From an uncultured Verrucomicrobiota bacterium (GTDB lineage: Bacteria > Verrucomicrobiota > Kiritimatiellia > RFP12 > UBA3636), in contig CASEAR010000044.1 of the NCBI GenBank assembly GCA_949285835.1, positions 3,248 to 67,247 of the forward strand: a stretch of 64,000 nt of DNA, given 5' to 3'. Below the pieces are notes generated by a model. That model ran no database searches, was not told where the DNA came from, and saw only the letters and a program-made list of their open reading frames with translations. Of the stretch, positions 11,698 through 52,025 are shown one piece after another (the first letter of the stretch is position 1; the number at the start of each line of letters is the position of its first letter). The translations under genes and the position numbers were made by a program.

Positions 11698-12429
11698 TTG
11701 AGATTTGATCTGCATATTCATTCATGTTTGTCTCCATGTGCGTCTTTGGACATGGCGCCTTCTGCCATTGCGCAGAGGGCTGTGGACATGGGGCTGGATG
11801 CGGTAGCCGTCACGGATCACAACAGCGCAAAGAACGCCCCGGCATTCAATGAATGCTGCGGGCGTCTGGGGCTCAAGGTCCTGTTTGGAATGGAGATATG
11901 CACTTCCGAGGAGTTCCACGTGCTTTCACTGTTCGATACGGTAGAACAGGCCCTGAATATGACGGACTGGGTGTACGATGCGCTGATAAAGCGCGTCAAC
12001 CAGCCGGAAGTATTCGGAGATCAGCCGGTCGTCAATGCGGATGATGAAATAGAGGAACTGGAATGGAGAATGCTCGGAACCCCGACAAAACGCGATGTTT
12101 ATCAGGTGGGCAGGCGAGTGAAGGAACTGGACGGGCTTTTTATTGCGTGCCATGTCGACAGATCCACTTCCAGCATCTTTTCACAGCTTGGCGCCCCGGC
12201 GGGAGATGAGGGGTTTGATGCCATGGAGCTGAGCCGCACCGCGGATGAAACGGTGTGGCGCGGCAAACTGTCAGGCGCGGCGTGTGTAAGATCTTCCGAT
12301 GCGCACAATATAGAGGATCTGGGAGTGGTCTGGACGGAGACAGACTCGGAAGATTTCTCCGTGGAAGGCTTGAGAAAAGTATTTAGAACGGGAAATTTAC
12401 GGCTGTCTCCCCCGTTGAGATTTTTTTGA
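11698..12429 (+). CDS. PHP-domain (polymerase/histidinol phosphatase-like) phosphoesterase
   Basis: N-terminal FDLHIHSCLS..DHN PHP metal-binding motifs. GTG start. Confidence 0.6.
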   Translation: MRFDLHIHSCLSPCASLDMAPSAIAQRAVDMGLDAVAVTDHNSAKNAPAFNECCGRLGLKVLFGMEICTSEEFHVLSLFDTVEQALNMTDWVYDALIKRVNQPEVFGDQPVVNADDEIEELEWRMLGTPTKRDVYQVGRRVKELDGLFIACHVDRSTSSIFSQLGAPAGDEGFDAMELSRTADETVWRGKLSGAACVRSSDAHNIEDLGVVWTETDSEDFSVEGLRKVFRTGNLRLSPPLRFF

Positions 12430-28167: not shown

Positions 28168-30324
28168 ATGGCGGAGAATATTGGTCAGAACGGCGGACTG
28201 AACGTACAGGCGGGCGTTCATGAGCAGGCGGAGAGCGTACATTTTCTTGACTATTGGCAGATGTTGTATGGACGAAAAGAAATAGTCATTGCCGTTTCTC
28301 TGATTATGTTTGTTTCCGGTATTTTTATAACGAGGAGCATGCCGAGGGTTTATGCGGCAAGCACGCTTGTTGAAATTCAGAGAGAAACAACGAATCTTGA
28401 TGTTTTCGGAACTACAATATCAAGGTACGATCCGTTTTTCCTCAAGACCCAGTTTGAGATAATAAAGTCTGATCCGATTATTGAGCAGGTGGTCCGGAAT
28501 TTGCGTTTCGATGAAATACTTGGTTCTGCGACGGGATGGAGCGCCAACAGCAGTCAAGCGGCTGTTTTCGACAGAACTGTCAAGTACGTGCAGGGGAACC
28601 TGCAGCTCGATATTTTGCGAGATACTCAGCTTGTTTCAATTACGATGAAATTAAGCGAGCCGAAAAATGAGGCTCCGCAATATGCTGTCAGACTGGTCAA
28701 TGAGGTTGCAAGGGTTTTCATGAACTGGACTCATGAGCGCGGGCTTGAGCAGAAGGAGCAAGGGCTGGAGACCTTGCGCGAAGAGATTGTGGAGGTGGAC
28801 AGGCAAATTTCTCAGAATGAGGACAAACTCGCGGAGATGCGTGCAAAGTACGGAATTACTGCGCTGTCAGATATTGACGCCGGTACTGCGTCCGTACGCT
28901 CGCAGATCTCGCAGCTTATGCCGGAGCGTATTCGCGCGGAAATGACGGCAAAAATCAAAGAGGCTAAGTATTCTCGTATCTTTGATTTGTCTACGGATGA
29001 AGCTGTGGCGGCGATTACCAGCATACTGAATGATTCATCCCTGTCTCCATTGGTTTCAGAGAAGCAGCGTCTGGAAATAATAGAACAGAAGAACGCAGAG
29101 GAATATGGGGAAAACCATCCGGAAGTTGTTCAGACGAAGGCGTTGCTGACGGCTGTGAACGGTAAGATAGAAGAGCGTGTCAACGAGATTAAGCAGGCGC
29201 TGCGGATGGATTATGAAATTGCTAAGCAGGAAGTGAACATAATAAACGGAAGACTCAAGGAAATGGAGGATGCAGAAAGGGAGCTTTCATCTGGTATATC
29301 TCTCGATTTTCAGAAGGCGATGACGGAATTACAGGCGCTCAAAGAACGCAAACTTATGCTCGAAGAGAGTCTTGTCCGGGAAAAGATGAAGATGAAGGCG
29401 GTGTCTACGAGTGTCCAGATCATACAACCGGCCAAAGATACGGAGAATCCGCTCCCTGTCAGTCCGAATTTCGCGTTGAATGTTATGCTGAGCCTCTTCA
29501 TCGGTTTGTTTTTTGGTGTTGTCATAGCGTTCTTTGTTGAATATCTTGACACGACGATCAAGTCGGTTACGGATCTTGAGAGATATCTTTCTGTTCCTGC
29601 CATAGGCATTGTCCCGCAAAAGATGCGATCACTGAATGATCCCGCGGCGCGTACGAAACATTCTGAGGTTTACCGCATAGTAAGAATGAACCTTAAATCT
29701 TCGAAGTCGCTTGGTGACGGCAAGGTCATTGTGATAACGAGTGCCGGTGCCGGTGAAGGAAAGAGCATGACGGCATTCAATTTGTCGTATGTGTGTGCAG
29801 AGATGGGTGAACGGGTTTTGCTTATTGACTGCGACTTCCATCGTCCGAGGCTGAACAAAATCTTGAATCTCCCGCGCGATCCTGGGTTGTGCAATGTAAT
29901 TGTCGGGGAGTCCGAGCTGGACGATACGATACACAAGGGCGTCGCGCAGAATTTGGATTTTATTTCATCTGGCCATTTGTCTACAGTTGGCGTATATGGT
30001 CTTGTTGATACGGATGAGATGCGTTCCGTTCTGGAATTTGCAAAGAGTAACTACGATCGAGTGATAATAGACGCTCCGCCTATAGTAGGCGTTTCTGATT
30101 CTTCTCAAATAGTTCGTATTTCCGACGGGGTAATAATGGTGGTTCAACATCGTAAATATCCGCGTTCCCTTTGCAAACGGGCCAAGGACACGATCGTCAG
30201 TATGGGAGGCAATCTCATTGGGTGTGTCCTCAACAACATCGATGTTTCCAAAGATTATTCGTCTTATTACTACAATAGCCAATACTACTACTATTATTCA
30301 TATCAAAACGATGCTGAGGCGTGA
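28168..30324 (+). CDS. polysaccharide chain-length determinant fused to a BY-family tyrosine autokinase (Wzc/EpsB-like, PEP-CTERM locus type)
   Basis: N-terminal Wzz-like region with a TM segment, a long coiled-coil and a second TM. C-terminal Walker A SAGAGEGKS and a terminal Tyr cluster YSSYYYNSQYYYYYSY. Confidence 0.8.
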   Translation: MAENIGQNGGLNVQAGVHEQAESVHFLDYWQMLYGRKEIVIAVSLIMFVSGIFITRSMPRVYAASTLVEIQRETTNLDVFGTTISRYDPFFLKTQFEIIKSDPIIEQVVRNLRFDEILGSATGWSANSSQAAVFDRTVKYVQGNLQLDILRDTQLVSITMKLSEPKNEAPQYAVRLVNEVARVFMNWTHERGLEQKEQGLETLREEIVEVDRQISQNEDKLAEMRAKYGITALSDIDAGTASVRSQISQLMPERIRAEMTAKIKEAKYSRIFDLSTDEAVAAITSILNDSSLSPLVSEKQRLEIIEQKNAEEYGENHPEVVQTKALLTAVNGKIEERVNEIKQALRMDYEIAKQEVNIINGRLKEMEDAERELSSGISLDFQKAMTELQALKERKLMLEESLVREKMKMKAVSTSVQIIQPAKDTENPLPVSPNFALNVMLSLFIGLFFGVVIAFFVEYLDTTIKSVTDLERYLSVPAIGIVPQKMRSLNDPAARTKHSEVYRIVRMNLKSSKSLGDGKVIVITSAGAGEGKSMTAFNLSYVCAEMGERVLLIDCDFHRPRLNKILNLPRDPGLCNVIVGESELDDTIHKGVAQNLDFISSGHLSTVGVYGLVDTDEMRSVLEFAKSNYDRVIIDAPPIVGVSDSSQIVRISDGVIMVVQHRKYPRSLCKRAKDTIVSMGGNLIGCVLNNIDVSKDYSSYYYNSQYYYYYSYQNDAEA

Positions 30325-30362
30325 GGACTGTTTCCTGTAATTATCATGGCGGTGGACATTAA

Positions 30363-31004
30363 ATGATGAACATCACAAAGAAGACACTTCCTGTTTTATT
30401 TTTTTCATATCTTATGTGCGGGTGCCTGTCGGTCTTTGACGGCTCTTTTCACGCCAATTCAAATTCATGGCGACCTCCGGTACCTGCACAGGTAAGCATT
30501 GAAAGCGCAGCAACCGGATCTCGTCCATTAAGGAGCGACGACGTGGTGGATATAATAGTAATGACCGGTTCTTCCGCTCCAATGCAGACAAGTGATGTCG
30601 TTGATACCGAGGGATGTGTTACGCTTCCGCTTTTAGGAGAATTTTCCGTCGGAGGATTGACGACGTCGGAAGCCGAAAAGGCAATATCGGAAGCGTATGT
30701 ATCCAAGCAGTATTTCAAGAAGGCTTCCGTTACTCTTGTCTGCAAAAACATGCTTCAGGAGTATGTAATCTACGTTACCGGCGCGGTAGTGCGTAAAGGT
30801 TCTCTCCCATATAAGGATGGCATAACGCTTTGGCAGGGAATTGTCGCCGCGGGAGACAGAACGCCGTTTGGGAGCGACAAAGTAAAGCTTGTGCGAAATG
30901 GGGTTACTACCACATACAGCATATCAAAGATTCAGAGCGGACGTGAGCCAGATCCGGTTCTGTTGCCGAACGATATGGTGGAAGTAGTGGAACGCTGGCT
31001 GTAG
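30363..31004 (+). CDS. polysaccharide export lipoprotein (Wza/EpsA-like Poly_export plus SLBB)
   Basis: Lipoprotein-like signal (LMCGC). The PLLGEFSVGGLTTSEAEKAI and AGDRTPFGS regions are typical of polysaccharide export proteins. Confidence 0.7.
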   Translation: MMNITKKTLPVLFFSYLMCGCLSVFDGSFHANSNSWRPPVPAQVSIESAATGSRPLRSDDVVDIIVMTGSSAPMQTSDVVDTEGCVTLPLLGEFSVGGLTTSEAEKAISEAYVSKQYFKKASVTLVCKNMLQEYVIYVTGAVVRKGSLPYKDGITLWQGIVAAGDRTPFGSDKVKLVRNGVTTTYSISKIQSGREPDPVLLPNDMVEVVERWL

Positions 31005-31023
31005 GAAGCCGGAGGCGGGGGAT

Positions 31024-31659
31024 ATGCCAGAGTTGTACGGAAAAGCCAGAAACGGCGTTGTTTTGTTTTTCTCTGGACTGCTTTTTCTAGCGGGTTTGTA
31101 CGGGGCCGTTTTTTCTTTAAGGGCGTCCGTATCGCAAACCGCATATCACGCGTGCAAATATGGTGTGTTTCGTGGAACGCAGTTCTGTACGCCTCCGGAG
31201 TCTGCTGGAGAGAATTTGTGGAACCAGTGCTATAAATCGTCCCTGCATTATCCCTACAACTACTATTTTTTCAGTTATGCGGCAAGATGCGCTTTTGATG
31301 CTGCATTGCGGTCTTCGGACTTGGAGCTTTTCGATGAACTGATGGACAAAGCGGATTTTTTTTCTGCTCGCGCGGTTTCTTTGAATCCGTACGATGAAGG
31401 TTCGAGGGATATCCGGGTTCGTGTGATTGCCGAAACAGACTCTGTGGATGGCGCGATATCTTATTGGCAAAGTGAAGTAGTTGATAAGGAACCATGGAGT
31501 TCAGTAAACAGGAATATGCTTGCTCAGCTGTATCTGCGGTCGCAGGCGGACGGGTCTTTTTCTAACGCGGTCATGCAGCTGCCCTTTGTCAGCGATGCAT
31601 CAATACGAAAGCGGTTGAATTCCGTTCGCGATAGACTTAATAAAAAGAAGAGCCAATAG
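31024..31659 (+). CDS. hypothetical membrane-anchored protein within the EPS locus
   Basis: 211 aa with an N-terminal TM helix. No recognisable domain. The call rests on position within the operon. Confidence 0.4.
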   Translation: MPELYGKARNGVVLFFSGLLFLAGLYGAVFSLRASVSQTAYHACKYGVFRGTQFCTPPESAGENLWNQCYKSSLHYPYNYYFFSYAARCAFDAALRSSDLELFDELMDKADFFSARAVSLNPYDEGSRDIRVRVIAETDSVDGAISYWQSEVVDKEPWSSVNRNMLAQLYLRSQADGSFSNAVMQLPFVSDASIRKRLNSVRDRLNKKKSQ

Positions 31660-31674
31660 ATTGAGATCGGTGAG

Positions 31675-33597
31675 ATGTGCGGCATAGCAGGTTTTTTTGG
31701 TGACGGCGCCAGGGAGAAGGCTGTCCGTATGGCGGAGGCGATGGTTTATCGCGGTCCGGATGACATGGGAATTTATGAAGAACCGGGGATTGCGTTTTCT
31801 CAGCGCAGGCTCAGTATTATTGACCTGTCAGGCGGACGTCAGCCTATAACCGATGAAAGCGGAGATTTGGTTCTTGTATGCAACGGGGAAATATACAATA
31901 GTCCGATTCTTAGAAAAGCGCTTCTAGATAAAGGGCACGTTTTCAAAACTAATACAGATGTTGAGGTCATTTTGCATTTGTATCAGGAAAAAGGGGATCG
32001 TCTGGTTTCTGATCTGAGAGGAATGTTTGCCTTTGCTCTGTGGGACAAATCACGCCGGCGTCTCCTTATGGCTCGCGATCACATGGGACAAAAGCCCTTG
32101 TTCTATGCAATTGGGAGCGGGGGAACTTTCGCATTTGCCTCTGAGGTTAAAAGCATACTTGCTTCAGATATCCTGGATCGTCGTCCTGATATTGACGCAA
32201 TTTGGCATTACATGTCGCTCAGATACGTGCCTGATAACAGGTCGATGTTCAAGGGAGTAATCAAACTGCCGGCTGCGCATTGTGCAGTATACGAGGACGG
32301 CAAAATCTCCGTATCGAGGTATTGGAGGCTTAACACTTTCAAGAATAAGATCTCCGGATCGGAACGGGAGCTTACAGACCGGCTTGAGAGTGTGCTTTTG
32401 GAGTCTGTAGGTACACATCTTTTAAGCGATGTTCCCGTGGGAACATTTTTAAGCGGCGGCATTGATTCGAGTCTTGTGACTGCGATGATGGCGAAAATAA
32501 CGGGCAGGTCCTTTCCTACATTTTCAATAGGGGTTAAAGAGCAAGACATAAATGAGCTCCCGTGGGCACGGATGATCTCCAGTAGGTATGGGCTGGATGC
32601 CCGTGAAGAAATCGTTGAGGCGGATGTTATTCATAAGATTCCAGAGATGGTTTACCATATGGATGAACCATCGGATCCGTTCGGCGTGGGCGTATATCTT
32701 GTTTCGCAGGTGGCCGCGCGGACAGTGAAAGTCGTGTTAACCGGCGATGGCGGGGATGAGAATTTTGCTGGATACGACAGGTTTGCCGGGCAAAAACTTG
32801 CAGGACTGTATTCAGTAGTCCCGTCGGCTTTGCGGAGGCATGTTTTCGGCAGAATCTTCAATCTTGTGCCGGAATCATTCGGGTACAAGAGCTTCGCCTC
32901 GAAGTTGAAGTGGCTCAATGACATGTCGTTTTTTTCTTCGGGCGAGCGGTACGCAAGGAGTATGTCGTTCCTTCGGTTTACCGACGAGGTTAAAGGATCT
33001 CTTTTTACCCAGTCTGCTCAATCCGCGCTTGAGAATTCTGATTCTGTGAGCAAAATCCTTGATTTCTTTAACGATGGCACTGCATCGGAGCTCCTTGATA
33101 AAATGCTTTATACGGATCTGATGACTCGCATGCCGGATCATCTTCTTGCGATTTCCGACAGAATGAGCATGGCTCATTCTATAGAGACCAGGCCTCCGCT
33201 TATAGACTACAAAGTCACGGAATTTGCAGCGTCGCTTCCTTGCAGTATGAAGTTGCACGGGAAGACGCTTAAGTATCTTTTGCGGAAGGTTTCCGAGAGG
33301 TATATGGACAAAAGGTTGATTGACAGACCGAAGCAGGGGTTCGGTTTCCCGATCGCAAGATGGATGCGCGGAGAGTGGGCTGCTTTCATGAAGCGCATTT
33401 TTCAGGAGTCCAGATTTGTGGAACTTGGCATATTCAAAAGAGATGAGATGTTAAAGCTTGCCGAGGAGCACATTTCCGGGCGTGCAGACCACAATTTCCG
33501 GCTTTGGATATTAATAAATCTTGAAGTTTGGCACAGGATCTGCGTTGAAGGTATGTCTTTGGATGATGTCAGGGAGTTTATAGACGCTGCATTATGA
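31675..33597 (+). CDS. asparagine synthase (glutamine-hydrolysing) family amidotransferase, exosortase-system-associated type
   Basis: MCGIAGFFG N-terminal nucleophile and a C-terminal synthetase domain with SGGIDSS. 640 aa. Located inside the PEP-CTERM EPS cluster. Confidence 0.85.
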   Translation: MCGIAGFFGDGAREKAVRMAEAMVYRGPDDMGIYEEPGIAFSQRRLSIIDLSGGRQPITDESGDLVLVCNGEIYNSPILRKALLDKGHVFKTNTDVEVILHLYQEKGDRLVSDLRGMFAFALWDKSRRRLLMARDHMGQKPLFYAIGSGGTFAFASEVKSILASDILDRRPDIDAIWHYMSLRYVPDNRSMFKGVIKLPAAHCAVYEDGKISVSRYWRLNTFKNKISGSERELTDRLESVLLESVGTHLLSDVPVGTFLSGGIDSSLVTAMMAKITGRSFPTFSIGVKEQDINELPWARMISSRYGLDAREEIVEADVIHKIPEMVYHMDEPSDPFGVGVYLVSQVAARTVKVVLTGDGGDENFAGYDRFAGQKLAGLYSVVPSALRRHVFGRIFNLVPESFGYKSFASKLKWLNDMSFFSSGERYARSMSFLRFTDEVKGSLFTQSAQSALENSDSVSKILDFFNDGTASELLDKMLYTDLMTRMPDHLLAISDRMSMAHSIETRPPLIDYKVTEFAASLPCSMKLHGKTLKYLLRKVSERYMDKRLIDRPKQGFGFPIARWMRGEWAAFMKRIFQESRFVELGIFKRDEMLKLAEEHISGRADHNFRLWILINLEVWHRICVEGMSLDDVREFIDAAL

Positions 33598-34354: not shown

Positions 34355-34906
34355 TTAATTTCTTTGCTTGTATATGCTCTCAAAGTTCGAAAGTGCGTCT
34401 TCAGTGAGTTCTACAAGATACTTGTTGTCGGTTACGCGTTTGAACTTTTCAAAGCCAATACTTCCGAGGACCTTGATATAAGGAGTGGTCAATTCTGCCG
34501 ATTTTGTGAAGCGGGCCATGTCTGATGGGATCAGTCCATTGTCGATAAATGTTTGGAAGACATCGGTCATTTCGGATTTAGACAGATGCATTCTGTCTAC
34601 CGTAATGTCATTCCAATCCGGATGGTCGAAATTTGTTGCAAAATCCGACCAGATCTGCGGACTTCTTCCTATACGGAACTCGACCTGGCCGGTTCCGAAA
34701 AATGACAGGCGGCATGGATCCTGTATATCCGAAGTTTCCGTATCGGGGAAATAAGCTATTTCGATCCAGTCGAGATCGGACAGGCTTACGGTTATGTCCT
34801 TATGCTTCAGATATCCATCCTGATCGACGGGAGAAATGCATCCGGCGGATAACAATGTGATTGAAACAAAAAATAAAATCATTACGGGATTCATTGAGAA
34901 CCTCAC
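34355..34906 (-). CDS. hypothetical lipoprotein
   Basis: Signal peptide with a lipobox-like LLSAGC. 4-bp overlap with the upstream gspF. Confidence 0.45.
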   Translation of the reverse strand: MRFSMNPVMILFFVSITLLSAGCISPVDQDGYLKHKDITVSLSDLDWIEIAYFPDTETSDIQDPCRLSFFGTGQVEFRIGRSPQIWSDFATNFDHPDWNDITVDRMHLSKSEMTDVFQTFIDNGLIPSDMARFTKSAELTTPYIKVLGSIGFEKFKRVTDNKYLVELTEDALSNFESIYKQRN

Positions 34907-36147
34907 GTGAGATGCGCTGCGCTGGTCACAGCCATGACGGCTTGCATTACGGAAATGGCGATAAATGCGATGATCAGCGCAACTACAAATATCATTATCG
35001 GTTCGAGCGCTGTTGTGAATATTCCGACGTTGCGTTCCAATTCGCTTTCGTACCGTTTTGCGACGTGGCCAAGGGCGGACGGCATGTCTCCGGTTCTTTC
35101 TCCTATGGCTATCATGTCTATAACCATTTGCGGAAAGATTCCTCCGGCAGCCAACGGCCCGGATATTGAGGTGCCGTCTGTTACCCGGTCCCGGGCTTTG
35201 AGGAGTTCTTCTCCGATAACTGTGTTCCCCACAGTTTGTGCTGTTATTTTCAATGCGCCCAGAACAGGGACTCCGTTTGCGAGCAGCGACTGGAGCGTTC
35301 TCGCGAAATTTGCGTATATGCTGCTCGCCACAATGCCTTTTATGAGCGGCATTTTAAGCTTCCATTTATCCCAAATCGGACGGCCTGAAGAAGACTGTGT
35401 CCATTTCCAGAAGCCAATCCCTCCTCCGACCATAAAGATGACAAGCAGAAAACCGTATTGCTTCAGCCAATTGCTTGATCCTACGAGGATTTTTGTCATG
35501 GGCGGCAGGCCATCCGGCCCGATTTGATCGAAGATAACCTGAAATTTCGGCAATATTACGGTGACTGCGACGATTGCCACTATAAATGCCATAACAAGGA
35601 CTATAACCGGATACACCATCGCCGAAATGACTTTGGCTCGCATTGCCTGTATTCGCTCATAGTGTTCTATAAGCCTGTGCAGGACTTCAGTCATGGCGCC
35701 GCTGGCTTCTCCCGCACGAATCATGTTTATGTATATGGCTGAAAATATCTTAGGATGCTTTTCGAGTGCATCTGAGAAGTTGGCGCCCTCGATTATAGAG
35801 TCTCGGAGGGAGGCAATGATTGCGGAAGCCCCTGAGTTTGCATCGTTACGGCTTGCAAGGCAGTTCAGCGCATTCCCCAGAGTCATGCCGCCTTCAAGCA
35901 GGTCGCACAGTTCGTTTGTGAAAAGCAGAACTTCGCGCCCGCTCATGTGATTCGGTCTGGACAGTCTGAATTTTCGCGCAGTGTTGTGCGTAACGGAGGC
36001 TGACGAAGTGTTTTTCTGCGAGACTTTCAACGGCAGAACACCGAGCTTCTCTATAGCGGACAACGCTCCTCGCCTGTCCGGAGCTTCCACCCGTCCGGAA
36101 ACCTTGTTTCCGCTTTTGTTTTTTGCTGTATATTCAAAGATTGGCAT
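34903..36147 (-). CDS. gspF: type II secretion / type IV pilus platform protein GspF/PilC family
   Basis: 414 aa with two T2SSF repeats and three TM segments. N-terminus MPIFEYTAKNKSGNKVSG. Confidence 0.85.
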   Translation of the reverse strand: MPIFEYTAKNKSGNKVSGRVEAPDRRGALSAIEKLGVLPLKVSQKNTSSASVTHNTARKFRLSRPNHMSGREVLLFTNELCDLLEGGMTLGNALNCLASRNDANSGASAIIASLRDSIIEGANFSDALEKHPKIFSAIYINMIRAGEASGAMTEVLHRLIEHYERIQAMRAKVISAMVYPVIVLVMAFIVAIVAVTVILPKFQVIFDQIGPDGLPPMTKILVGSSNWLKQYGFLLVIFMVGGGIGFWKWTQSSSGRPIWDKWKLKMPLIKGIVASSIYANFARTLQSLLANGVPVLGALKITAQTVGNTVIGEELLKARDRVTDGTSISGPLAAGGIFPQMVIDMIAIGERTGDMPSALGHVAKRYESELERNVGIFTTALEPIMIFVVALIIAFIAISVMQAVMAVTSAAHLT

Positions 36148-36741
36148 TCAGAGCCCCTATATTTTCACACACATGTCCGGAGTTTACCTTTTTTCGCTTT
36201 GCCTTTCAAGTATGCCGGAATACGTTGGAATTTCGGGGAAGTTGCAAAACACAGCGTCCATGCCTGTGCTAAAAACGGGTGTCATGAGAAGAGTTCTGCA
36301 TATGCAATCAAAAGCATTCATATTAAATTTGGGCGGCCGCTAGCTTAACCCGAGTACGGCTTGAATTCATTTTGTGTTCAGATTTGATATGGCTTGCTGC
36401 ATCTTTATCTGGCGGCGCCAAGTTTCGAATTTGTCTGCGGGTTGCGCGGAACAGGCAATTCCCCGCCGAGAATAACGTTTCGAAATGTCATTCGTCGTCA
36501 ATGACATGGGAAGACAAGCCTGATGAACGTGGTCTCGCTGTGTGTCGCATTGGTTTTGTAGGGTTTCGTTTGATTTTGGTGCTGCAGACGTCAATGCTGT
36601 ATCCATAATTGACAGCGGCCATAAATACGGATGCAAATTGTTTTCTGCGGCGATTTTAAAAGCCGTCAGCCTGATTTGAATGCGGTTTTTGTACGGTGGG
36701 AATTTTATCAAATTTACGCGGATTGCGGCTGGATTTGGTCA

Positions 36742-36770
36742 TGACAAACAGGTCTTGGATATGGTACAAT
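36742..36770 (+). promoter_or_regulatory. putative sigma70 promoter (TGACAA, 17 bp, TGgTACAAT extended -10) for the DRTGG/CBS-HATPase operon
   Basis: Consensus match seen in the sequence about 50 bp upstream of the ATG at 36820. Confidence 0.3.
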
Positions 36771-36819
36771 GTTCTACAGACACTGCGAAGACAGTGATGG
36801 CCGTCTAATGGGGGGTGAA

Positions 36820-37176
36820 ATGACAGTAGACAAGGTTGCAGAAATACTTGACGGTAAAGTCTTATACAAGGACAAAGAGGATGAGCGCCATGTCGGCAAG
36901 GTGGTGGCGTCCGATTTGATGAGCGATGTGCTTCTGGTGGACGCAGATGACATACTTCTTCTGACGTCGCTTGCCAGCGATCAGTCAATTCGTACAGCGC
37001 AGATAGTTGGAGCCATGGGTGTTGTCGTGCACAACAACAAGCCGCTTCCGGCAAGTATGCTGAGCGTTGCTCAAACGCTTGGCATACCGCTCGTTACGTG
37101 TCCGTATGCAAAATATGAGAGTTGCGTCCGTCTTTATAAAGCGCTTTGCGCTGAAAGCGGTTCCGAAGAGCAGTAG
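36820..37176 (+). CDS. DRTGG-like small domain protein
   Basis: About 118 aa. Call rests on architecture and context: an identical-sized paralog flanks the CBS-HATPase gene on the other side. RBS GGGGGTGAAATG. Confidence 0.5.
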   Translation: MTVDKVAEILDGKVLYKDKEDERHVGKVVASDLMSDVLLVDADDILLLTSLASDQSIRTAQIVGAMGVVVHNNKPLPASMLSVAQTLGIPLVTCPYAKYESCVRLYKALCAESGSEEQ

Positions 37177-37179
37177 AGT

Positions 37180-38145
37180 ATGGACTCGCAGTCGGTAAAT
37201 GCGGTTGGCTCCACGGTTCGCAAGACGGAAGCTGAGGGCGATGCACTGGTCGTCATGGAGCTTATACAGAGGCTCAAGGTGCGTGACGTGATGACGCGGA
37301 ATCTTGTGACGTTGTCACGATCTGCGACATTGCGTGAGGCGCAGCTGCTGATGCGTGAAAACCACATAAGCGGCATTCCGATCGCCGAAAACGGACGTCT
37401 TTACGGGATCGTAAGCATAGACGACATTATACAGGCGCTTGACGGCGGGTATATTTCCGAGAAGTGTGTGAGCAGGATGTCGACACACCTGATCGTGCTG
37501 GAAGAAGATATGCCTGTATCGTTTGCTCTCGGTTTTTTTGAGAATTACAAATATGGGCGCTTCCCGGTCCTGAGCAAGGACAGGGCGCTTGTCGGCATTG
37601 TGAGTCAGCGTGACATCAGCCGCGTGATGCTCTACGAGCTTACACAGGAAATAAACAGGCTGGAACGGCAGCACACTAGGGCGCCGGAAGACAGGGTGGG
37701 AGAAGGGGCTCAGCTCTACATGCTGCGGGAGTTTCCCGTGGTAAAGTATGATTTCGAAAACGCAGGAAAGGCGGCGAACGAGATCAAAAGACTTTTGAGA
37801 GAGCAGGGGGTGGCAGCCAGACTGACCCGGCGTATAGCTGTGGCGGCATACGAGCTTGAGATAAATATATGCGTTCACTCCAACGGAGGAACACTTTCGT
37901 TTGTGATATCGAACGGAGTGGCGGAAGTCGTTGCCAGGGATACCGGGCCCGGAATAGAAAATGTCGAGTGGGCGTGCCGAGACGGAACATCTACTGCCAA
38001 TGAATGGATAAGGTCGCTTGGTTTCGGCGCAGGTATGGGGCTTGCCAACACCAAGCGCGTAGCGGACAAGTTCGATATATCTTCCACACTTGGTAAGGGA
38101 ACTACCGTGTATGCAGCGTTCAGGCTTGACGGAGCAGAGAAATGA
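37180..38145 (+). CDS. CBS-pair domain protein fused to an anti-sigma-factor-type HATPase_c serine kinase domain
   Basis: Two CBS motifs (VRDVMTRNLVTL.., GRFPVLSKDRALVGIVSQRDI) and a C-terminal RsbW/SpoIIAB-like ATPase (DTGPGI, GFGAGMGL). Confidence 0.7.
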   Translation: MDSQSVNAVGSTVRKTEAEGDALVVMELIQRLKVRDVMTRNLVTLSRSATLREAQLLMRENHISGIPIAENGRLYGIVSIDDIIQALDGGYISEKCVSRMSTHLIVLEEDMPVSFALGFFENYKYGRFPVLSKDRALVGIVSQRDISRVMLYELTQEINRLERQHTRAPEDRVGEGAQLYMLREFPVVKYDFENAGKAANEIKRLLREQGVAARLTRRIAVAAYELEINICVHSNGGTLSFVISNGVAEVVARDTGPGIENVEWACRDGTSTANEWIRSLGFGAGMGLANTKRVADKFDISSTLGKGTTVYAAFRLDGAEK

Positions 38146-38483
38146 CGTTTGAAGAAGTGCGAAAATCTCTAGATGGCGTGTGGGTAACGGACGGTCTGGA
38201 TGATTCCCAGTCCGTTTCCAATGCATACACATCGGATTTGCTTAGCGATGTGATGGGTAATGCACCGGACGATTCGGTGCTCGTAACCATACAGAATCAC
38301 CTGAATACGATTGCTGTATGTACACTGGCGGGAATAAAGATCGTGGCAGTGTGCCACGATCGGGATGTGCCCCAGGACATGAAGGATGCTGCAGAGAGGG
38401 AGGGCGTTGCGATTCTTCGCACTCCGTACGATCAGTTTTCTGCTTCGTGCAGACTGTCGGAACTCTGCGGCGGGGCGAGATAG
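38142..38483 (+). CDS. DRTGG-like small domain protein (second copy)
   Basis: 113 aa. 4-bp overlap with the CBS-HATPase gene. Similar size and pattern to the 36820 gene. Confidence 0.5.
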   Translation: MTFEEVRKSLDGVWVTDGLDDSQSVSNAYTSDLLSDVMGNAPDDSVLVTIQNHLNTIAVCTLAGIKIVAVCHDRDVPQDMKDAAEREGVAILRTPYDQFSASCRLSELCGGAR

Positions 38484-43040: not shown

Positions 43041-43117
<77 letters not shown>

Positions 43118-48024: not shown

Positions 48025-48894
48025 TTAATCCATGCGGCCGGCTGTTCCGTAAGGCTGTTCGCCGGCTTCAGCCGGCTTTCGCGAATACGTGTGTTCCGGC
48101 CCCGGATATGTTCTGGCCTCAACCTCAGCCATGTACATGCGTACAGCGTCAACAGCTATCTGTTTGCATTCTGCGAAACGTTTTACAAATTTTGGAGTCT
48201 TCCCCTGTGTAAGGCCAAGCATGTCTGCAATAACAAGTATCTGACCGTCGCATCCGGCTCCGGCGCCAATGCCGATGGTTGGAATCGGCAGTTCTGACGT
48301 TATGGAGGATGCCACGTCCGGATCGACGCATTCCAGCACGACGCAGAATGCTCCTGCCTCGGCAACTGCCCGAGCGTCATCATGAAGGAGCTGAGCCTCT
48401 TTTTCGGTTTTCCCTTTTGAGGAATACCCCTGAGCCTTGACGGACTGCGGGAGCAGACCTATGTGCGCCATGACAGGGATGCCGTTGTCTGTAAGCTTGC
48501 GTATGAGTCCGGCGCGTATTACTCCGCCTTCGAGTTTGACGGCGTCGGCGCCTCCTTCTCTTATGAAGCGGCCGGCATTATGTATGGCTTCTTCGTCTGA
48601 AATCTGGTACGAAAGAAACGGCATATCGGCAACGACCATCGAGTTTACGGCGGCTCTTGAAACTGCAGATGTATGGTGAAGCATTATTTCCATGGTCGCC
48701 GGTATTGTGGAGGAGAATCCAAGTGCGGTTGTGCACAGGGAATCGCCAACGAGGATTAAGGGAATTCCGGCTTCATCGGCTATCTTGCCGGTTAGAAAAT
48801 CATATGCGGTGACGGCGGGAAGAATTCTTTCTCCCTTCAGTGATGATATTTTTGCAGGTGTCCACTTAGACATATTTTTCCTCCCTTGTTGCAT
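48025..48894 (-). CDS. panB: 3-methyl-2-oxobutanoate hydroxymethyltransferase
   Basis: ILPAVTAYDF..ILVGDSL..ADMPFLSY core. The start is either M1 or M8 of the ORF. Confidence 0.85.
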   Translation of the reverse strand: MQQGRKNMSKWTPAKISSLKGERILPAVTAYDFLTGKIADEAGIPLILVGDSLCTTALGFSSTIPATMEIMLHHTSAVSRAAVNSMVVADMPFLSYQISDEEAIHNAGRFIREGGADAVKLEGGVIRAGLIRKLTDNGIPVMAHIGLLPQSVKAQGYSSKGKTEKEAQLLHDDARAVAEAGAFCVVLECVDPDVASSITSELPIPTIGIGAGAGCDGQILVIADMLGLTQGKTPKFVKRFAECKQIAVDAVRMYMAEVEARTYPGPEHTYSRKPAEAGEQPYGTAGRMD

Positions 48895-48909
48895 TGTTCG
48901 GCTGCAACG

Positions 48910-50028
48910 TTACCTGACGGAGTCTATATGTATTCCGCGTCTTATATATGTTGGGATATCGAGCTGTTCCCCGCCAGCTACGGCGGAGCGTGTGCCGTTA
49001 AACCTGCCGGGAATCATGTGTTGTGCAGCATGTGCCGAGCGGGCGGCCGCGTCTATGGTTGTGCCTCCGCCCTCCTGGCACTCCGCAATGCCGCCAAGTG
49101 AATCCTTCCAAGATCTGAACAGCATGGCAGAAACCGTGATTTGCGTGTTCTCTTTGCCGGAAACAACGGTCCCCATTTTTATCTCAGTTCCGTGACTGAC
49201 GGCGGAAGTTATTCCGGCCATTACGGTTGCAATTTCCGAAAGCCGCAAATCGTCTCCGCCGCATATTCCGATAAGGGCAGCTCCCGTCTGCGGAAGAGCG
49301 GCGGAGAGTCCTTTTTTCAAGTTCTGGGCGGCCTCATTTGCACGGTCCGCTCCGTATGCGGAGGCGGTTCCGAAAAAGAACTGGCCAGACGATTTTTTTA
49401 CTGTGCTCACTATAGCGGCCGGATCAATCCGTATGTAACCGGGGTGCATGGCTATATTCCTGAGCATAGAAATTCCCTCGGCCATTTTCCTCCCGGCGAT
49501 GTTCATGGCTTCGGAAAACTTTATCGTCGGATTGGATTCAGTGCCGCAAAGCTCATCATTGGGGCAGATTGCGTAGACCGCGCCTGTCTTTTGCACCGCA
49601 TAAATTGCCTTGGAAGCTCTTCTATCGCGTTCCACGCCTTCAAAGGAGAATGGAGACAGTCCAAAAATTACTGTTGGTATGGACGCTTTGTGTGCGGCAT
49701 TTGCGAGTGATACGGCGATCCCGCTTCCGGCTCCGCCGCCGAGTCCGAAAACTATGAACAGAAGGGATGCGTCTGAAATTATGCGGGCCAGTGCTTCTGT
49801 GTCCTCGTCTGCGGCCATTTGAGCGCTTGCCATGTCGCCATTGGTCCCGATGCCGGAAAATCTGTTGCTGCCGATACAGATGGTTTCTGAGCACTTCAAA
49901 GAAGAAAGAGCATGGAGATCCGTATCGATTGCGTACGGTATGAAGTCGGAGTTTTCCGCTGCAGCATCCACTATTCTGCTTCCCGCGCCGCCGGTTCCCA
50001 CGATTTTGAAAGAATCATACTTCATCAT
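48910..50028 (-). CDS. ftsZ: divergent FtsZ-like tubulin-family GTPase
   Basis: GTGGAGS and GLGGGAGSG tubulin signature motifs, a C-terminal DIPTYIRRG peptide, and position directly downstream of ftsA. I placed the start at the internal Met (MMKYDSFKIVG) so the overlap with ftsA is only 14 bp. Confidence 0.65.
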   Translation of the reverse strand: MMKYDSFKIVGTGGAGSRIVDAAAENSDFIPYAIDTDLHALSSLKCSETICIGSNRFSGIGTNGDMASAQMAADEDTEALARIISDASLLFIVFGLGGGAGSGIAVSLANAAHKASIPTVIFGLSPFSFEGVERDRRASKAIYAVQKTGAVYAICPNDELCGTESNPTIKFSEAMNIAGRKMAEGISMLRNIAMHPGYIRIDPAAIVSTVKKSSGQFFFGTASAYGADRANEAAQNLKKGLSAALPQTGAALIGICGGDDLRLSEIATVMAGITSAVSHGTEIKMGTVVSGKENTQITVSAMLFRSWKDSLGGIAECQEGGGTTIDAAARSAHAAQHMIPGRFNGTRSAVAGGEQLDIPTYIRRGIHIDSVR

Positions 50029-51235: not shown

Positions 51236-51257
51236 AACCTGTTCCCGCTTTCCTCAT

Positions 51258-52025
51258 TTAACCGGCAATCACGCGTTTTTCGTTGATTAATACGGTGAAC
51301 CGGCGTTTTGTTCTGTTGTTGGCCACGGGTCTTGCCGCAAGTTTCAGCGCCATAACTATATCTCCCGTTCCTTTCATGTCTTCCCATGGGATGCATATTT
51401 CTTTGCCGGTGTCAGTGTAGAGCGTCAGATATATTCCGTTAGCGGTATCCGCCATAACAATTTTGAATCCCGGGTTCCCAAACTTTGAAAAGCAGTCCAG
51501 TGCGGATACTGCAGTAATTGATTTTTCCGTTTTAAGCTCATCTCCAGGTAGTTTGTCTGCGATATCTGCATCGTTTATCACAGGCAGAGAATGAAGCAGG
51601 TCATTTCTTGTCCGGGGCAGTGTCATTACAACGCCGTCCGGGTCCACGACGAACCTGCTGTTGTTGATTCTTGCTACCGGTATGCGATCCACGGGGCTTA
51701 TCCGTATTGTATTCGGGAAAATTTTCTCTATGCTGATGTCCCGCAGCTGAGGAAGGTCCCTGAGGATCTGGCTGCGGCTCTTGCCGCAGTCGAAGTCCAT
51801 TATTTTATCGCCTTCATCACCTACTTTAATTTTGTCGCCTTTTTTTGTCGTCAGCAGATCCATTATCTGCTCTCTGGTCAGTTCGGTCAGTCCGGTACGC
51901 ACATCGACATGCCTGATCCGGTAGTCAGGATTGGCACGGTAGGCAAAGTAATTAGTCAATGTCAGGAGTACTGTGGCAGAGAAAATTGTCGCCGCTGTCG
52001 CGACGTCTTTATTGGTTATCCGCAT
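51258..52025 (-). CDS. ftsQ: cell division protein FtsQ/DivIB-like (POTRA)
   Basis: N-terminal TM anchor and a POTRA-like region. Position between ddl and ftsA. Confidence 0.6.
   Translation of the reverse strand: MRITNKDVATAATIFSATVLLTLTNYFAYRANPDYRIRHVDVRTGLTELTREQIMDLLTTKKGDKIKVGDEGDKIMDFDCGKSRSQILRDLPQLRDISIEKIFPNTIRISPVDRIPVARINNSRFVVDPDGVVMTLPRTRNDLLHSLPVINDADIADKLPGDELKTEKSITAVSALDCFSKFGNPGFKIVMADTANGIYLTLYTDTGKEICIPWEDMKGTGDIVMALKLAARPVANNRTKRRFTVLINEKRVIAG

What the first reader, a model, noticed from the sequence alone, without database searches (positions are those of the whole stretch)
36742..38483. DRTGG-like / CBS-pair plus HATPase_c kinase / DRTGG-like signalling triad
Two paralogous small proteins of about 115 aa flank a protein with tandem CBS motifs fused to an RsbW/SpoIIAB-type serine-kinase ATPase. 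The junctions are 3-bp and 4-bp, and a good extended -10 promoter sits upstream. To my knowledge such DRTGG / CBS / HATPase clusters have been described next to sensory [FeFe]-hydrogenase regulators in some anaerobic Firmicutes and Thermotogae, but their mechanism is uncharacterised. Here the module stands alone upstream of nagA and uvrB, which suggests an adenylate- or metabolite-sensing partner-switch of unknown output.
Basis: partly seen in the sequence, partly recalled or inferred. Interest (0 to 1): 0.5.

Follow-up and report, generated by a model that had tools for sequence, protein, structure and literature searches.

The report
CBS-gated kinase module linked to hydrogenases
Three tightly packed genes (small DRTGG-fold protein, CBS-pair plus SpoIIAB-like kinase ATPase, second small DRTGG-fold protein) are real, and they belong to a widespread, uncharacterised signalling module that in other anaerobes usually sits beside or inside operons for electron-bifurcating [FeFe] hydrogenases, so it offers a way to study how these bacteria regulate hydrogen metabolism.

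Summary
A (36820-37176, 118 aa) and C (38142-38483, 113 aa) are paralogous DRTGG-fold proteins. They flank B (37180-38145, 321 aa), a CBS pair plus a SpoIIAB/RsbW-type GHKL ATPase with invariant N, G1 and G2 boxes. The junctions are a 3-bp spacer and a 4-bp overlap.

The triad does not truly stand alone. In 80 related loci from more than 10 phyla the usual order is A-type DRTGG, kinase, C-type DRTGG, PHP phosphoesterase, a 180-aa HATPase, then HydC/ferredoxin/HydB/HydA. Some loci have the module between hydB and hydA. Of 43 loci with 6 kb or more on both sides, 27 carry Hyd subunits and 33 carry the PHP gene.

The window holds the PHP orthologue 25 kb away (11698-12429), 63% identical to the cluster-linked PHP of the closest relative. 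No hydrogenase gene lies in the 64 kb.

In other lineages the same syntenic slot holds the same kinase fused to an H-cluster-like hydrogenase domain, or to the A-type DRTGG domain. The CBS pair is therefore one of several interchangeable input domains.

The mechanism is inferred: a non-canonical phospho or partner switch, with no STAS, PP2C or sigma factor, probably tuning HydABC. Interest is moderate; this is a new variant of a known kind.

The parts
36741..36770 (+). Sigma-70-like promoter candidate: ATGACA, 18-nt spacer, TG-extended TACAAT
   Evidence: 10 of 12 matches, with TG before the -10. This is a consensus match only. The region has 5 such sites against 2.4 +/- 1.5 in shuffles. The -10 overlaps the ATG at 36769, which argues for the A start at 36820.
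36820..37176 (+). Gene A: A-type DRTGG-fold protein, 118 aa. Signature D32-L-M-S35-D-V, T49-S-L-x-S-x-Q55-x-x-R58-T59-A, K74.
   Evidence: Pfam DRTGG 23.2 bits, E 6e-5, below GA 25.2. NCBIfam CBS-PPase DRTGG insert, E 1e-6. 395 homologues; those listed are mostly 110-118 aa. Scores 143 bits on my A-type HMM against 58 on the C-type HMM. 34% identical to the N-domain of the natural fusion P0317, E 3e-15. The P0317 model matches DRTGG structures 2ioj (TMt 0.77) and 3l31/3l2b.
37180..38145 (+). Gene B: CBS pair plus SpoIIAB/RsbW-type GHKL ATPase (putative Ser/Thr kinase), 321 aa
   Evidence: Pfam CBS x2, E 7e-29; HATPase_c_2 29.3 bits, above GA 27.4. AF2 model pLDDT 89.3 with a disordered linker at residues 167-177. 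Foldseek: CBS pairs TMt 0.85-0.88, SpoIIAB TMt 0.79-0.82, E about 1e-11. 70 clusters at 50% identity with E < 1e-30.
37279..37650 (+). CBS pair (Bateman module) of B, residues about 34-157. Both motifs carry G-h-h-S-x-x-D (G76-IVSIDD, G139-IVSQRD).
   Evidence: G76 and G139 are nearly invariant across 41 family members. The ribose-binding reading of the motif comes from general knowledge of CBS domains and was not tested here.
37720..38127 (+). HATPase_c_2 domain of B, residues about 181-316, with N box E225/E227/N229, G1 box D254-T-G-P-G-I and G2 box G281-F-G-A-G-M-G-L-A-N290
   Evidence: These columns are invariant in alignment A2 of 41 members at 27-57% identity. PDB sequence hits to SpoIIAB, E 5e-4. 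41% identical to the HATPase domain of the HATPase plus H-cluster-like fusion P0336, E 6e-34.
38142..38483 (+). Gene C: C-type DRTGG-fold protein, 113 aa. Signature Y29-x-S-D-L-L-S35-D-V-M, T49-I-Q51-x-H53-x-N55-x-I-A-V.
   Evidence: Pfam DRTGG 22.9 bits, E 8e-5. NCBIfam DRTGG insert, E 6e-8. 923 homologues; about a sixth of the 120 listed carry a precomputed PF07085 hit. 136 bits on the C-type HMM against 69 on the A-type HMM. H53, N55, T49 and S35 are 100% conserved among 29 downstream-type sequences.
11698..12429 (+). Displaced fourth member: PHP plus PHP_C phosphoesterase, 243 aa, with N-terminal DLHIHSCLSPC motif, 26 bp downstream of uxuA
   Evidence: tblastn with 8 cluster-linked PHP proteins gave one strong hit each, E 1e-31 to 4e-45. 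Pfam PHP 48.4 bits and PHP_C 27.2 bits. 248.6 bits on the HMM of cluster-linked PHPs, the same as independent cluster-linked members (246 and 212 bits). 63% identical over the full length, without gaps, to the PHP that directly follows A-B-C in the closest relative L091.

Best explanation
Shown:
- The triad is the CBS-input version of a conserved signalling module found in anaerobes. The module order is A-type DRTGG protein, SpoIIAB-like GHKL kinase, C-type DRTGG protein, PHP phosphoesterase, then often a 180-aa HATPase.
- In most lineages this module lies beside or inside the operon for the HydABC electron-bifurcating [FeFe] hydrogenase.
- In this Kiritimatiellia genome the module is dispersed. 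A-B-C lie at 36.8-38.5 kb and PHP at 11.7 kb. There is no hyd gene and no 180-aa HATPase in the 64 kb.

Inferred mechanism:
- B binds ATP at its intact Bergerat site and acts as a Ser/Thr kinase or an ATP-dependent partner-binding switch.
- An adenosyl ligand (AMP, ADP, ATP or a related nucleotide) bound to the CBS pair sets B's activity. This input takes the place of the H-cluster-like domain that the same kinase carries in other lineages.
- A is B's constitutive partner. The two are fused into one polypeptide in some organisms.
- C is the switch protein or substrate. The candidate acceptor is the invariant Ser35, at the N-terminus of helix 2 in the D-L-[ML]-S-D-V motif.
- The PHP enzyme, which stays next to C even when the cluster is rearranged, resets C by dephosphorylation.
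- The output is post-translational or expression control of HydABC-type hydrogen metabolism according to energy charge.
For: Module membership and synteny:
- 80 loci from Kiritimatiellia, Lentisphaerae, Spirochaetota, Anaerolineae, Atribacterota, Cloacimonadota, Nitrospirota, delta-proteobacteria, Planctomycetes, Fidelibacterota and others were examined.
- Among 43 loci with 6 kb or more on both sides, A-type occurs in 33, C-type in 37, PHP in 33, Hyd subunits in 27 and the 180-aa HATPase in 25.
- The order HydC-Fd-HydB-A-B-C-PHP-HATPase-HydA occurs in L067, L072, L073, L077, L081 and L082. A divergent hydCBA sits next to the module in Kiritimatiellia and Spirochaetota loci L003, L012, L013, L015, L019, L029, L032, L036 and L046.

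Interchangeable input domains:
- L087 has A-type, then [HATPase + Fer4 + Fe_hyd_lg_C + FeS, 533 aa], C-type, PHP, HATPase, HydC, Fd, HydB, in the same frame. Its HATPase domain is 41% identical to B's.

A-kinase link:
- Natural A-type DRTGG plus HATPase fusions exist (P0317, P0315, P0338, P0377, P0356).
- L089 has the fusion followed by C-type, PHP, HATPase and a receiver domain, with no separate A gene in the tandem gene run that starts with the fusion.

C-PHP link:
- The pair stays adjacent when it is separated from A-B, as in L007 and L008 (divergent) and L083 (2.7 kb away).

Kinase competence:
- The N, G1 and G2 boxes are invariant and the fold matches SpoIIAB/RsbW.

A and C as old, distinct orthologous groups:
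- They share an invariant D32/S35 and differ in type-specific residues at strand ends and helix N-termini.
- The D-L-M-S-D-V segment lies outside the part that aligns with the CBS-PPase DRTGG domain.

PHP orthology.
Against: - No hydrogenase gene lies in the 64-kb window or within 10 kb in the two closest relatives examined. 16 of the 43 well-flanked loci lack Hyd genes within 7 kb. The link to HydABC in this genome is therefore extrapolated.
- Nothing here shows kinase activity, phosphorylation of A or C, PHP action on a protein, or what the CBS pair binds.
- Ser35 is invariant in both A and C, so it does not say which of them, if either, is the substrate. It could equally be a ligand-binding or structural residue.
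- PHP enzymes also hydrolyse nucleotides. The weak NCBIfam similarities are to RNase RNM and to 3',5'-bisphosphate phosphatase.
- The 180-aa HATPase found in most modules is absent from the window, and its role is unexplained.
- Many Spirochaetota loci lack A, and some Kiritimatiellia loci lack C and PHP nearby.
Confidence: 0.45

Rival explanations
1. This is an autonomous adenylate- or metabolite-sensing partner switch whose output has nothing to do with hydrogenase, for example sequestering a sigma factor or another regulator encoded elsewhere. B would act as an anti-sigma-like kinase and A and C as its antagonists.
For: - B's C-terminal domain is structurally closest to the anti-sigma kinases SpoIIAB and RsbW.
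- The window has no hyd genes.
- In this clade the module sits among unrelated genes.
- 16 of 43 well-flanked loci lack Hyd genes nearby.
Against: - No sigma factor, STAS or PP2C gene is seen in the window.
- None is adjacent to the module in any Pfam-annotated related locus.
- Across phyla the dominant neighbour is HydABC, and in six loci the module lies between hydB and hydA.
- The same kinase is fused to an H-cluster-like domain in the same syntenic slot.
Confidence: 0.2
2. The module is a ligand-gated binding switch with no protein phosphorylation. A and C would be small-molecule-binding domains, in the way the Pta and CBS-PPase DRTGG domains are regulatory. B would use ATP binding and hydrolysis only to change conformation, and PHP would hydrolyse a nucleotide signal rather than a phosphoprotein.
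For: - The conserved residues of A and C cluster at strand C-termini and helix N-termini, which is the usual ligand crevice of alpha/beta folds (secondary structure, conservation).
- The PHP protein's weak NCBIfam similarities are to nucleotide-acting enzymes (RNase RNM, 3',5'-bisphosphate phosphatase).
- The DRTGG domain is part of a nucleotide-regulated insert in CBS-PPase (titles and abstracts listed).
Against: - The nearest structural relatives of B's ATPase domain are genuine protein Ser kinases.
- The PHP gene is kept in variants that lack a CBS pair, so it is not simply managing a CBS ligand.
Confidence: 0.17
3. The module is an ATP-dependent assembly or maturation factor for HydABC-type complexes rather than a regulator. 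GHKL ATPases include chaperones, and PHP would act as an accessory hydrolase, for example in cofactor processing.
For: - Six loci have the module inside the structural operon, between hydB and hydA.
- A second HATPase (180 aa) lies within hydC-hydB operons.
- The module contains no DNA-binding domain.
Against: - A sensor-type input (CBS pair or H-cluster-like domain) on the kinase points to signalling.
- The module persists far from hyd genes in many genomes.
- HydABC has been purified and its structure solved as a three-subunit enzyme (eLife 2022, PMC9499530, listed). That these factors are absent from that enzyme is my reading from general knowledge.
Confidence: 0.12
4. The arrangement is a chance juxtaposition or an anti-phage defence island.
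For: The CBS region gives a weak NCBIfam hit to a CBS anti-phage protein (NF053863, 33 bits against a cut-off of 260).
Against: - PADLOC gives no hit for A, B or C.
- The gene order is conserved in dozens of loci across more than 10 phyla.
- The neighbours are housekeeping or metabolic genes.
Confidence: 0.02

Closest known systems
SpoIIAB-SpoIIAA-SpoIIE and RsbW-RsbV-RsbU/P partner-switching modules
   Same: - The ATPase domain of B has the same fold and the same nucleotide-binding boxes as SpoIIAB and RsbW (TMt 0.79-0.87).
- It meets the Pfam HATPase_c_2 gathering score.
- It is encoded with small single-domain partner proteins and a metal-dependent phosphoesterase, which matches the kinase, substrate/antagonist and phosphatase logic.
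   Different: - The partners are DRTGG-fold proteins, not STAS domains.
- The hydrolase is a PHP enzyme, not PP2C.
- No sigma factor is linked.
- The kinase carries an N-terminal CBS pair. In relatives it carries an H-cluster-like domain or a fused DRTGG domain.
- The genomic association is with HydABC hydrogenase operons and not with sigma-factor operons.
Regulatory gene clusters of putative sensory [FeFe] hydrogenases (HydS, groups C and D / M2f and M2e) upstream of bifurcating HydABC
   Same: - The literature notes a 'histidine/serine kinase' or 'histidine kinase-like ATPase' between sensory and bifurcating hydrogenases (PMC3561251; PMC8163306).
- B's kinase domain is 40-46% identical to HATPase domains fused to Fer4 + Fe_hyd_lg_C + FeS proteins.
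- These fusion proteins occupy the same A-kinase-C-PHP slot.
   Different: - Here the sensor is a CBS pair, a presumed adenosyl-ligand sensor, and not an H-cluster domain.
- This copy is not linked to any hydrogenase gene.
- Group C HydS systems use PAS domains with PP2C phosphatases and Ser/Thr kinases (PMC5707799), which is a different set of parts.
Regulatory insert of CBS-pyrophosphatase (CBS-DRTGG-CBS; PDB 3l2b/3l31)
   Same: - It combines a CBS pair with a DRTGG-fold domain.
- A and C match the DRTGG segment of these models, and the fold matches.
- In CBS-PPase the insert mediates adenine-nucleotide regulation (abstracts listed).
   Different: - Here DRTGG and CBS are on separate polypeptides, and the effector is a GHKL ATPase and not a pyrophosphatase.
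- The name-giving D-R and T-G-G residues are replaced: G-DR aligns with GLTN, and TGG aligns with CRG.
- A subfamily-specific D-L-M-S-D-V motif is present.

Membership tests
SpoIIAB/RsbW-type anti-sigma Ser kinases (HATPase_c_2) | GHKL (Bergerat) fold with N, G1 and G2 nucleotide-binding boxes | tested here: met
   Pfam HATPase_c_2 29.3 bits against GA 27.4. E225/E227/N229, D254-x-G-P-G-I and G281-F-G-A-G-x-G-L-x-N are invariant in 41 members. Foldseek to SpoIIAB TMt about 0.8, E about 1e-11.
SpoIIAB/RsbW-type anti-sigma Ser kinases (HATPase_c_2) | Cognate STAS-domain antagonist encoded alongside | tested here: not met
   No STAS family appears in the Pfam tables of the window region or of the related loci, nor in my scans of window ORFs. 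The flanking small proteins have a DRTGG fold.
SpoIIAB/RsbW-type anti-sigma Ser kinases (HATPase_c_2) | PP2C phosphatase and target sigma factor in the module | tested here: not met
   Neither is adjacent in any annotated locus (same calls). The conserved hydrolase is a PHP enzyme. The rest of the genome could not be searched.
SpoIIAB/RsbW-type anti-sigma Ser kinases (HATPase_c_2) | Phosphorylates a Ser/Thr of its partner | not testable with these tools
   This needs a kinase assay. Only a candidate acceptor, the invariant Ser35 of A and C, was identified.
DRTGG domain (PF07085) | Sequence score at or above the Pfam gathering score | tested here: inconclusive
   A scores 23.2 and C 22.9 bits against GA 25.2. 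Homologues pass: the P0317 N-domain scores 37.3 bits, and about a sixth of the 120 listed C-type homologues carry a precomputed PF07085 hit.
DRTGG domain (PF07085) | DRTGG three-layer alpha/beta fold as in PDB 2ioj and 3l2b | tested here: met
   The model of homologue P0317 (pLDDT 84) matches 2ioj with TMt 0.77 and rmsd 2.4, and 3l31/3l2b with E 5e-6. A is 34% identical to that domain. A and C themselves were not modelled.
DRTGG domain (PF07085) | Name-giving conserved residues D-R and T-G-G | tested here: not met
   The alignment to 3l2b places 'IAG-DRAE' opposite 'ITGLTNAQ' and 'VTGGHTP' opposite 'VCRGKMP'. Window A has SLASDQ / HNNK and C has IQNHLN / CHDR at these positions. This is a divergent subfamily.
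CBS pair (Bateman module) | Two tandem CBS motifs forming one module | tested here: met
   Pfam CBS, two stretches, E 7e-29. The model matches CBS-pair structures with TMt 0.85-0.88.
CBS pair (Bateman module) | Binds an adenosyl ligand | not testable with these tools
   G-h-h-S-x-x-D motifs are present in both CBS domains (sequence). The ligand is unknown.
Two-component sensor histidine kinase | DHp/HisKA domain with a phospho-accepting His N-terminal to the CA domain | tested here: not met
   There is no HisKA hit and no invariant or nearly invariant His in the family alignment. Residues 143-165 form a helix followed by a disordered linker.
Hydrogenase-associated module: A, kinase, C, PHP, HATPase (defined here from synteny) | Gene order A-type DRTGG, HATPase_c_2 kinase, C-type DRTGG | tested here: met
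   Window A and C score best on the A-type and C-type HMMs respectively. The order matches most loci.
Hydrogenase-associated module: A, kinase, C, PHP, HATPase (defined here from synteny) | PHP phosphoesterase immediately downstream of C | tested here: not met
   nagA follows C. The PHP orthologue is present but 25 kb upstream, at 11698-12429.
Hydrogenase-associated module: A, kinase, C, PHP, HATPase (defined here from synteny) | 180-aa HATPase and HydABC genes adjacent | tested here: not met
   tblastn with HydA, HydB, HydC, the ferredoxin and the 180-aa HATPase finds nothing in the window. The rest of the genome could not be tested.

The most novel reading that the evidence does not exclude
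A previously undescribed type of partner or phospho switch. DRTGG-fold proteins take the place of STAS antagonists and a PHP phosphoesterase takes the place of PP2C. The SpoIIAB-like kinase accepts interchangeable input modules: a CBS pair for energy charge, an H-cluster-like domain for H2 or redox state, or none. The switch acts directly, post-translationally, on electron-bifurcating HydABC-type enzymes and so sets the direction or rate of hydrogen metabolism in many anaerobic phyla.
Probability: 0.3. Interest if true: 0.75.

Novelty: new variant of a known kind. Interest (0 to 1): 0.5.

Why it matters
How putative sensory [FeFe] hydrogenases pass on their signal, and how bifurcating hydrogenases are regulated, are both open questions. 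Published work mentions only a nearby 'histidine kinase-like ATPase'. This analysis does three things:

- It defines the full conserved parts list: two distinct DRTGG-fold proteins, the kinase, a PHP enzyme and a second HATPase.
- It shows that the sensor domain on the kinase is interchangeable (CBS pair, H-cluster-like domain or DRTGG).
- It names candidate functional residues.

The CBS version should be easier to study, because it does not require maturation of an H-cluster. That makes the signalling chemistry (kinase, substrate, phosphatase, ligand) directly testable in vitro. If the output is HydABC, the module would couple energy charge to H2 production in gut, sediment and digester anaerobes.

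Tried and rejected
- Sequence searches of A, C and the A-family profile against PDB gave nothing significant. A structure model was needed to confirm the fold.
- Hydrogenase genes in the window: tblastn with HydA, HydB, HydC, the ferredoxin and the 180-aa HATPase was negative.
- RNA elements: Rfam found only a tRNA in the window and nothing in the 670-bp region upstream of A.
- Terminator between C and nagA: none found. The fold z-score is 0.07 and the scan found no + strand site. Whether nagA and uvrB are co-transcribed with the triad is undecided.
- Defence system: PADLOC was negative for A, B and C.
- nagA as a disguised replacement for PHP: rejected, because it is a genuine NagA equivalog.
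- Sigma, STAS or PP2C partners in the window: none.
- Literature searches for DRTGG with hydrogenase, PHP or kinase found no paper describing the module. One search was too broad to be useful. Subscription-only papers such as Calusinska 2010, Poudel 2016 and Zheng 2014 could not be searched.
- I tried to learn whether Breznakiella homolactica, which has the module without nearby hyd genes (L014), has a hydrogenase. The paper read says only that the related species it analysed carry a group A3 hydrogenase, so this is undecided.
- Organism name: exact cluster look-up returned no names. The Kiritimatiellia assignment rests on the names of homologues.
- Two encoding-contig look-ups for window proteins found no record.


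Full report
**1. What is in the sequence**

Three + strand genes lie at 36.8-38.5 kb.

- Gene A. The mechanical ORF starts at 36769 (135 aa, the length also called in the public record). The ATG at 36820 is the better start, giving 118 aa. It follows GGGGGGTGAA, and the homologues listed are mostly 110-118 aa. The only good promoter-like site, ATGACA-18 nt-TG-TACAAT at 36741-36770 (10 of 12 matches), has its -10 over the upstream ATG.
- Junctions. A ends at 37176, and B (37180-38145, 321 aa) starts 3 bp later. C (38142-38483, 113 aa) overlaps B by ATGA.
- Promoter. It is a consensus match in a phylum whose promoters are not characterised, so I treat it as suggestive only.

**2. Domains**

- B has two CBS motifs (100.3 bits, E 7e-29) and a HATPase_c_2 domain at 29.3 bits, above the gathering score of 27.4. 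Its C-terminal part matches SpoIIAB in PDB by sequence, E 5e-4.
- An AF2 model of B built on a 41-sequence alignment has pLDDT 89.3. It shows two well-folded halves joined by a disordered linker at residues 167-177, with pTM 0.56.
- Foldseek gives CBS pairs (MJ0922, MJ0100) at TMt 0.85-0.88 and SpoIIAB at TMt 0.79-0.82, E about 1e-11. No solved structure contains both halves.
- Across 41 family members at 27-57% identity, three sets of columns are invariant: the N box (E225, E227, N229), the G1 box (D254-x-G-P-G-I) and the G2 box (G281-F-G-A-G-x-G-L-x-N290). The nucleotide site is therefore intact.
- There is no HisKA domain and no conserved His, so B is not a two-component histidine kinase.
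- Both CBS motifs carry G-h-h-S-x-x-D (GIVSIDD, GIVSQRD). In characterised CBS domains this motif contacts the ribose of adenosyl ligands. That reading is general knowledge and was not tested here.
- A and C hit Pfam DRTGG just below threshold: 23.2 and 22.9 bits against 25.2, E 6e-5 and 8e-5. They also hit the DRTGG insert of CBS-pyrophosphatase models, E 1e-6 and 6e-8.
- A and C are paralogues: 29% identity, E 1e-13.
- PDB sequence searches found nothing, so I modelled a natural homologue. P0317 is an A-type domain fused to the same kinase domain. The model has pLDDT 84 and pTM 0.79.
- The N-domain of that model matches AF1212 ('Pfam DRTGG', 2ioj, TMt 0.77, rmsd 2.4) and the DRTGG domain of C. 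perfringens CBS-PPase (3l31/3l2b, E 5e-6). Its C-domain matches SpoIIAB and RsbW, TMt 0.83-0.87.
- Window A is 34% identical to the P0317 N-domain, E 3e-15.
- The residues that give the family its name are replaced in this subfamily. G-DR aligns with GLTN, and TGG aligns with CRG.

**3. Organism and family size**

- The listed B homologues are 61-77% identical, and those that carry a name are from Kiritimatiellia MAGs.
- An exhaustive search of cluster representatives finds 70 clusters (at 50% identity) with E < 1e-30.
- The same search shows that B's kinase domain, at 40-46% identity, also occurs in three other forms:
  - as a stand-alone protein of about 140 aa;
  - N-terminally fused to Fer4 + Fe_hyd_lg_C + PF04060 FeS, giving H-cluster-like 'sensory hydrogenase' proteins of 480-607 aa;
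  - C-terminally fused to an A-type DRTGG domain (261-286 aa).

**4. Genomic context elsewhere**

I scanned one genome per species with the B-family alignment. This returned 80 loci from Kiritimatiellia, Lentisphaerae, Verrucomicrobiota, Spirochaetota (including Breznakiella homolactica and Sphaerochaeta), Anaerolineae, Atribacterota, Cloacimonadota, Nitrospirota, delta-proteobacteria, Planctomycetes, Bipolaricaulota and Fidelibacterota.

I scored stop-to-stop ORFs with HMMs built here. The recurrent order is:

A-type DRTGG, B, C-type DRTGG, a PHP + PHP_C protein of about 245 aa (Pfam), a HATPase_c protein of about 180 aa, then HydC (NuoE-like), a small 2Fe-2S ferredoxin-like protein, HydB (NuoF-like) and HydA.

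Counts among the 43 loci with 6 kb or more on both sides:

| Component within the locus | Loci |
|---|---|
| A-type | 33 |
| C-type | 37 |
| PHP | 33 |
| Hyd subunit | 27 |
| 180-aa HATPase | 25 |
| A, C, PHP and Hyd all present | 22 |
| Window-like (A and C, no PHP, no Hyd) | 1 |

- In L067, L072, L073, L077, L081 and L082 the module sits inside the operon: HydC-Fd-HydB-A-B-C-PHP-HATPase-HydA.
- In Kiritimatiellia and Spirochaetota loci L003, L012, L013, L015, L019, L029, L032, L036 and L046 it is divergent from hydCBA.

Two look-ups confirm the frame.

- L087 has A-type (113 aa), then [HATPase + H-cluster-like, 533 aa], C-type (115 aa), PHP, HATPase, HydC, Fd and HydB. B therefore occupies the slot of a kinase/sensory-hydrogenase fusion, with a CBS pair in place of the hydrogenase-like domain.
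- L089 has [A-type + kinase fusion], C-type, PHP, HATPase and a receiver domain, with no separate A gene in the tandem gene run that starts with the fusion.

A-type and C-type are separate orthologous groups conserved across phyla.

- Both keep D32 and S35 of a D-L-[ML]-S-D-V motif. In the fusion model this motif lies at the start of helix 2.
- A-type adds T49-[GS]-L-x-[NS]-x-Q55-x-x-R58-T59-A and K74.
- C-type adds Y29 and T49-[IL]-Q51-x-H53-x-N55-x-V-A-V-A.
- These residues lie at strand ends and helix N-termini, which is the usual functional crevice of alpha/beta folds.
- C and PHP stay together when the cluster is rearranged (L007, L008, L083). A and the kinase stay together or fuse.

**5. 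The window's own arrangement**

- No Hyd subunit and no 180-aa HATPase is encoded in the 64 kb.
- The PHP partner is present, at 11698-12429, 26 bp after uxuA. It scores 248.6 bits on the HMM of cluster-linked PHPs, like independent cluster-linked members.
- It is 63% identical, full length and without gaps, to the PHP that directly follows A-B-C in the closest relative L091, whose B is 75% identical.
- In another relative (L092, B 67% identical) the PHP gene lies 4.4 kb upstream.
- In this clade the module has therefore lost physical linkage to hyd, and PHP has drifted away from it.
- The downstream gene is a genuine nagA, followed by uvrB.
- The rest of the window is housekeeping and polysaccharide-export genes, with no sigma, STAS or PP2C genes.
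- Rfam finds nothing upstream of A. There is no terminator-like structure after C. PADLOC gives no hit for A, B or C.

**6. How it most likely works**

Shown:
- B has an intact SpoIIAB-like nucleotide site and a sensor-type N-terminal module.
- B belongs to a module that is strongly associated with HydABC.
- The input domain of the kinase is interchangeable.
- The pairings A-kinase and C-PHP are conserved.

Inferred:
- B is a Ser/Thr kinase or an ATP-dependent partner-binding switch gated by an adenosyl ligand on the CBS pair.
- A is its constitutive partner.
- C is the switch protein, with Ser35 as the candidate acceptor.
- PHP resets C.
- The output is control of HydABC-type hydrogen metabolism. 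This control is probably post-translational, because the module has no DNA-binding domain and can sit between structural genes.

I give the composite explanation 0.45. The membership part alone is about 0.9. The hydrogenase output in this genome is about 0.55. The Ser-phosphorylation details are about 0.3.

Rivals are an autonomous partner switch with an unrelated output (0.2), a ligand-gated switch without protein phosphorylation (0.17), an assembly factor (0.12), and chance or defence (0.02).

**7. Comparison with what is known**

- The system works like a SpoIIAB/RsbW partner switch but fails the membership features for STAS, PP2C and sigma.
- It is related to the poorly described kinase genes noted between sensory and bifurcating [FeFe] hydrogenases (PMC3561251; PMC8163306).
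- It differs from the PAS/PP2C group C HydS systems (PMC5707799).
- No paper in the searchable library describes the DRTGG/PHP parts or the CBS version. Subscription-only literature could not be checked.

**8. Verdict**

This is a dispersed CBS-input member of a widespread, uncharacterised, hydrogenase-associated signalling module: a new variant of a known kind, of moderate interest.

Noticed in passing
window 36769-36819: The public gene call for A is 135 aa, starting at 36769. The homologues listed are mostly 110-118 aa, and the promoter-like -10 overlaps that ATG. The annotated start is probably 17 codons too early.
   Followed up: partly
window 36148-36819: The intergenic region between the divergent T2SS-F-like gene (34903-36147, - strand) and gene A is 670 bp long. 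It has no Rfam match and no convincing ORF. In relatives the stretch between the divergent hydC and gene A is only about 140-230 bp. Its content is unexplained.
   Followed up: partly
L003:6394-6936 (-), L087:5977-6522 (+), L089:8872-9423 (+): A second conserved HATPase_c protein of about 180 aa, with no HisKA domain, is part of most modules and of hydC-hydB operons. In L089 a stand-alone receiver domain follows it. It is absent from the window and its role is unknown.
   Followed up: partly
L067, L072, L073, L077, L081, L082 (about 3.4-12.7 kb in each locus): In Cloacimonadota, Planctomycetes, Bipolaricaulota and other loci the whole A-B-C-PHP-HATPase module lies between hydB and hydA of the structural operon. 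Several of these loci have unusually long HydA (about 1080-1100 aa) or HydB (about 1020-1036 aa) ORFs.
   Followed up: no
window 9827-10294 (+): A small Nitro_FeMo-Co (NifX/NifB-like) domain protein of 155 aa, 78.8 bits, lies between an RNase T-like exonuclease gene and uxuA.
   Followed up: no
window 4401-6247 (-) and 28168-33597 (+): An exosortase EpsH gene with a DUF3485 (EpsI-like) neighbour, plus a polysaccharide-export set: a ParA/AAA_31-type 718-aa protein, Poly_export and asparagine synthase. Together these suggest a PEP-CTERM/exopolysaccharide system.
   Followed up: no
window 37315-38232 (-): A 305-aa ORF runs antisense through almost the whole of gene B. B is strongly conserved on the + strand, so I took this as a shadow ORF and not a gene.
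   Followed up: no
window 43042-43115 (+): The only Rfam hit in the window at gathering score is a single tRNA gene (69.8 bits).
   Followed up: no
window 48025-52942 (-): A division-cluster segment, ddl-ftsQ(POTRA)-ftsA-ftsZ followed by panB, lies on the - strand. Nearby are IleRS (+), NusA-IF2-RbfA (+) and BacA (+). This confirms an ordinary chromosomal context.
   Followed up: no
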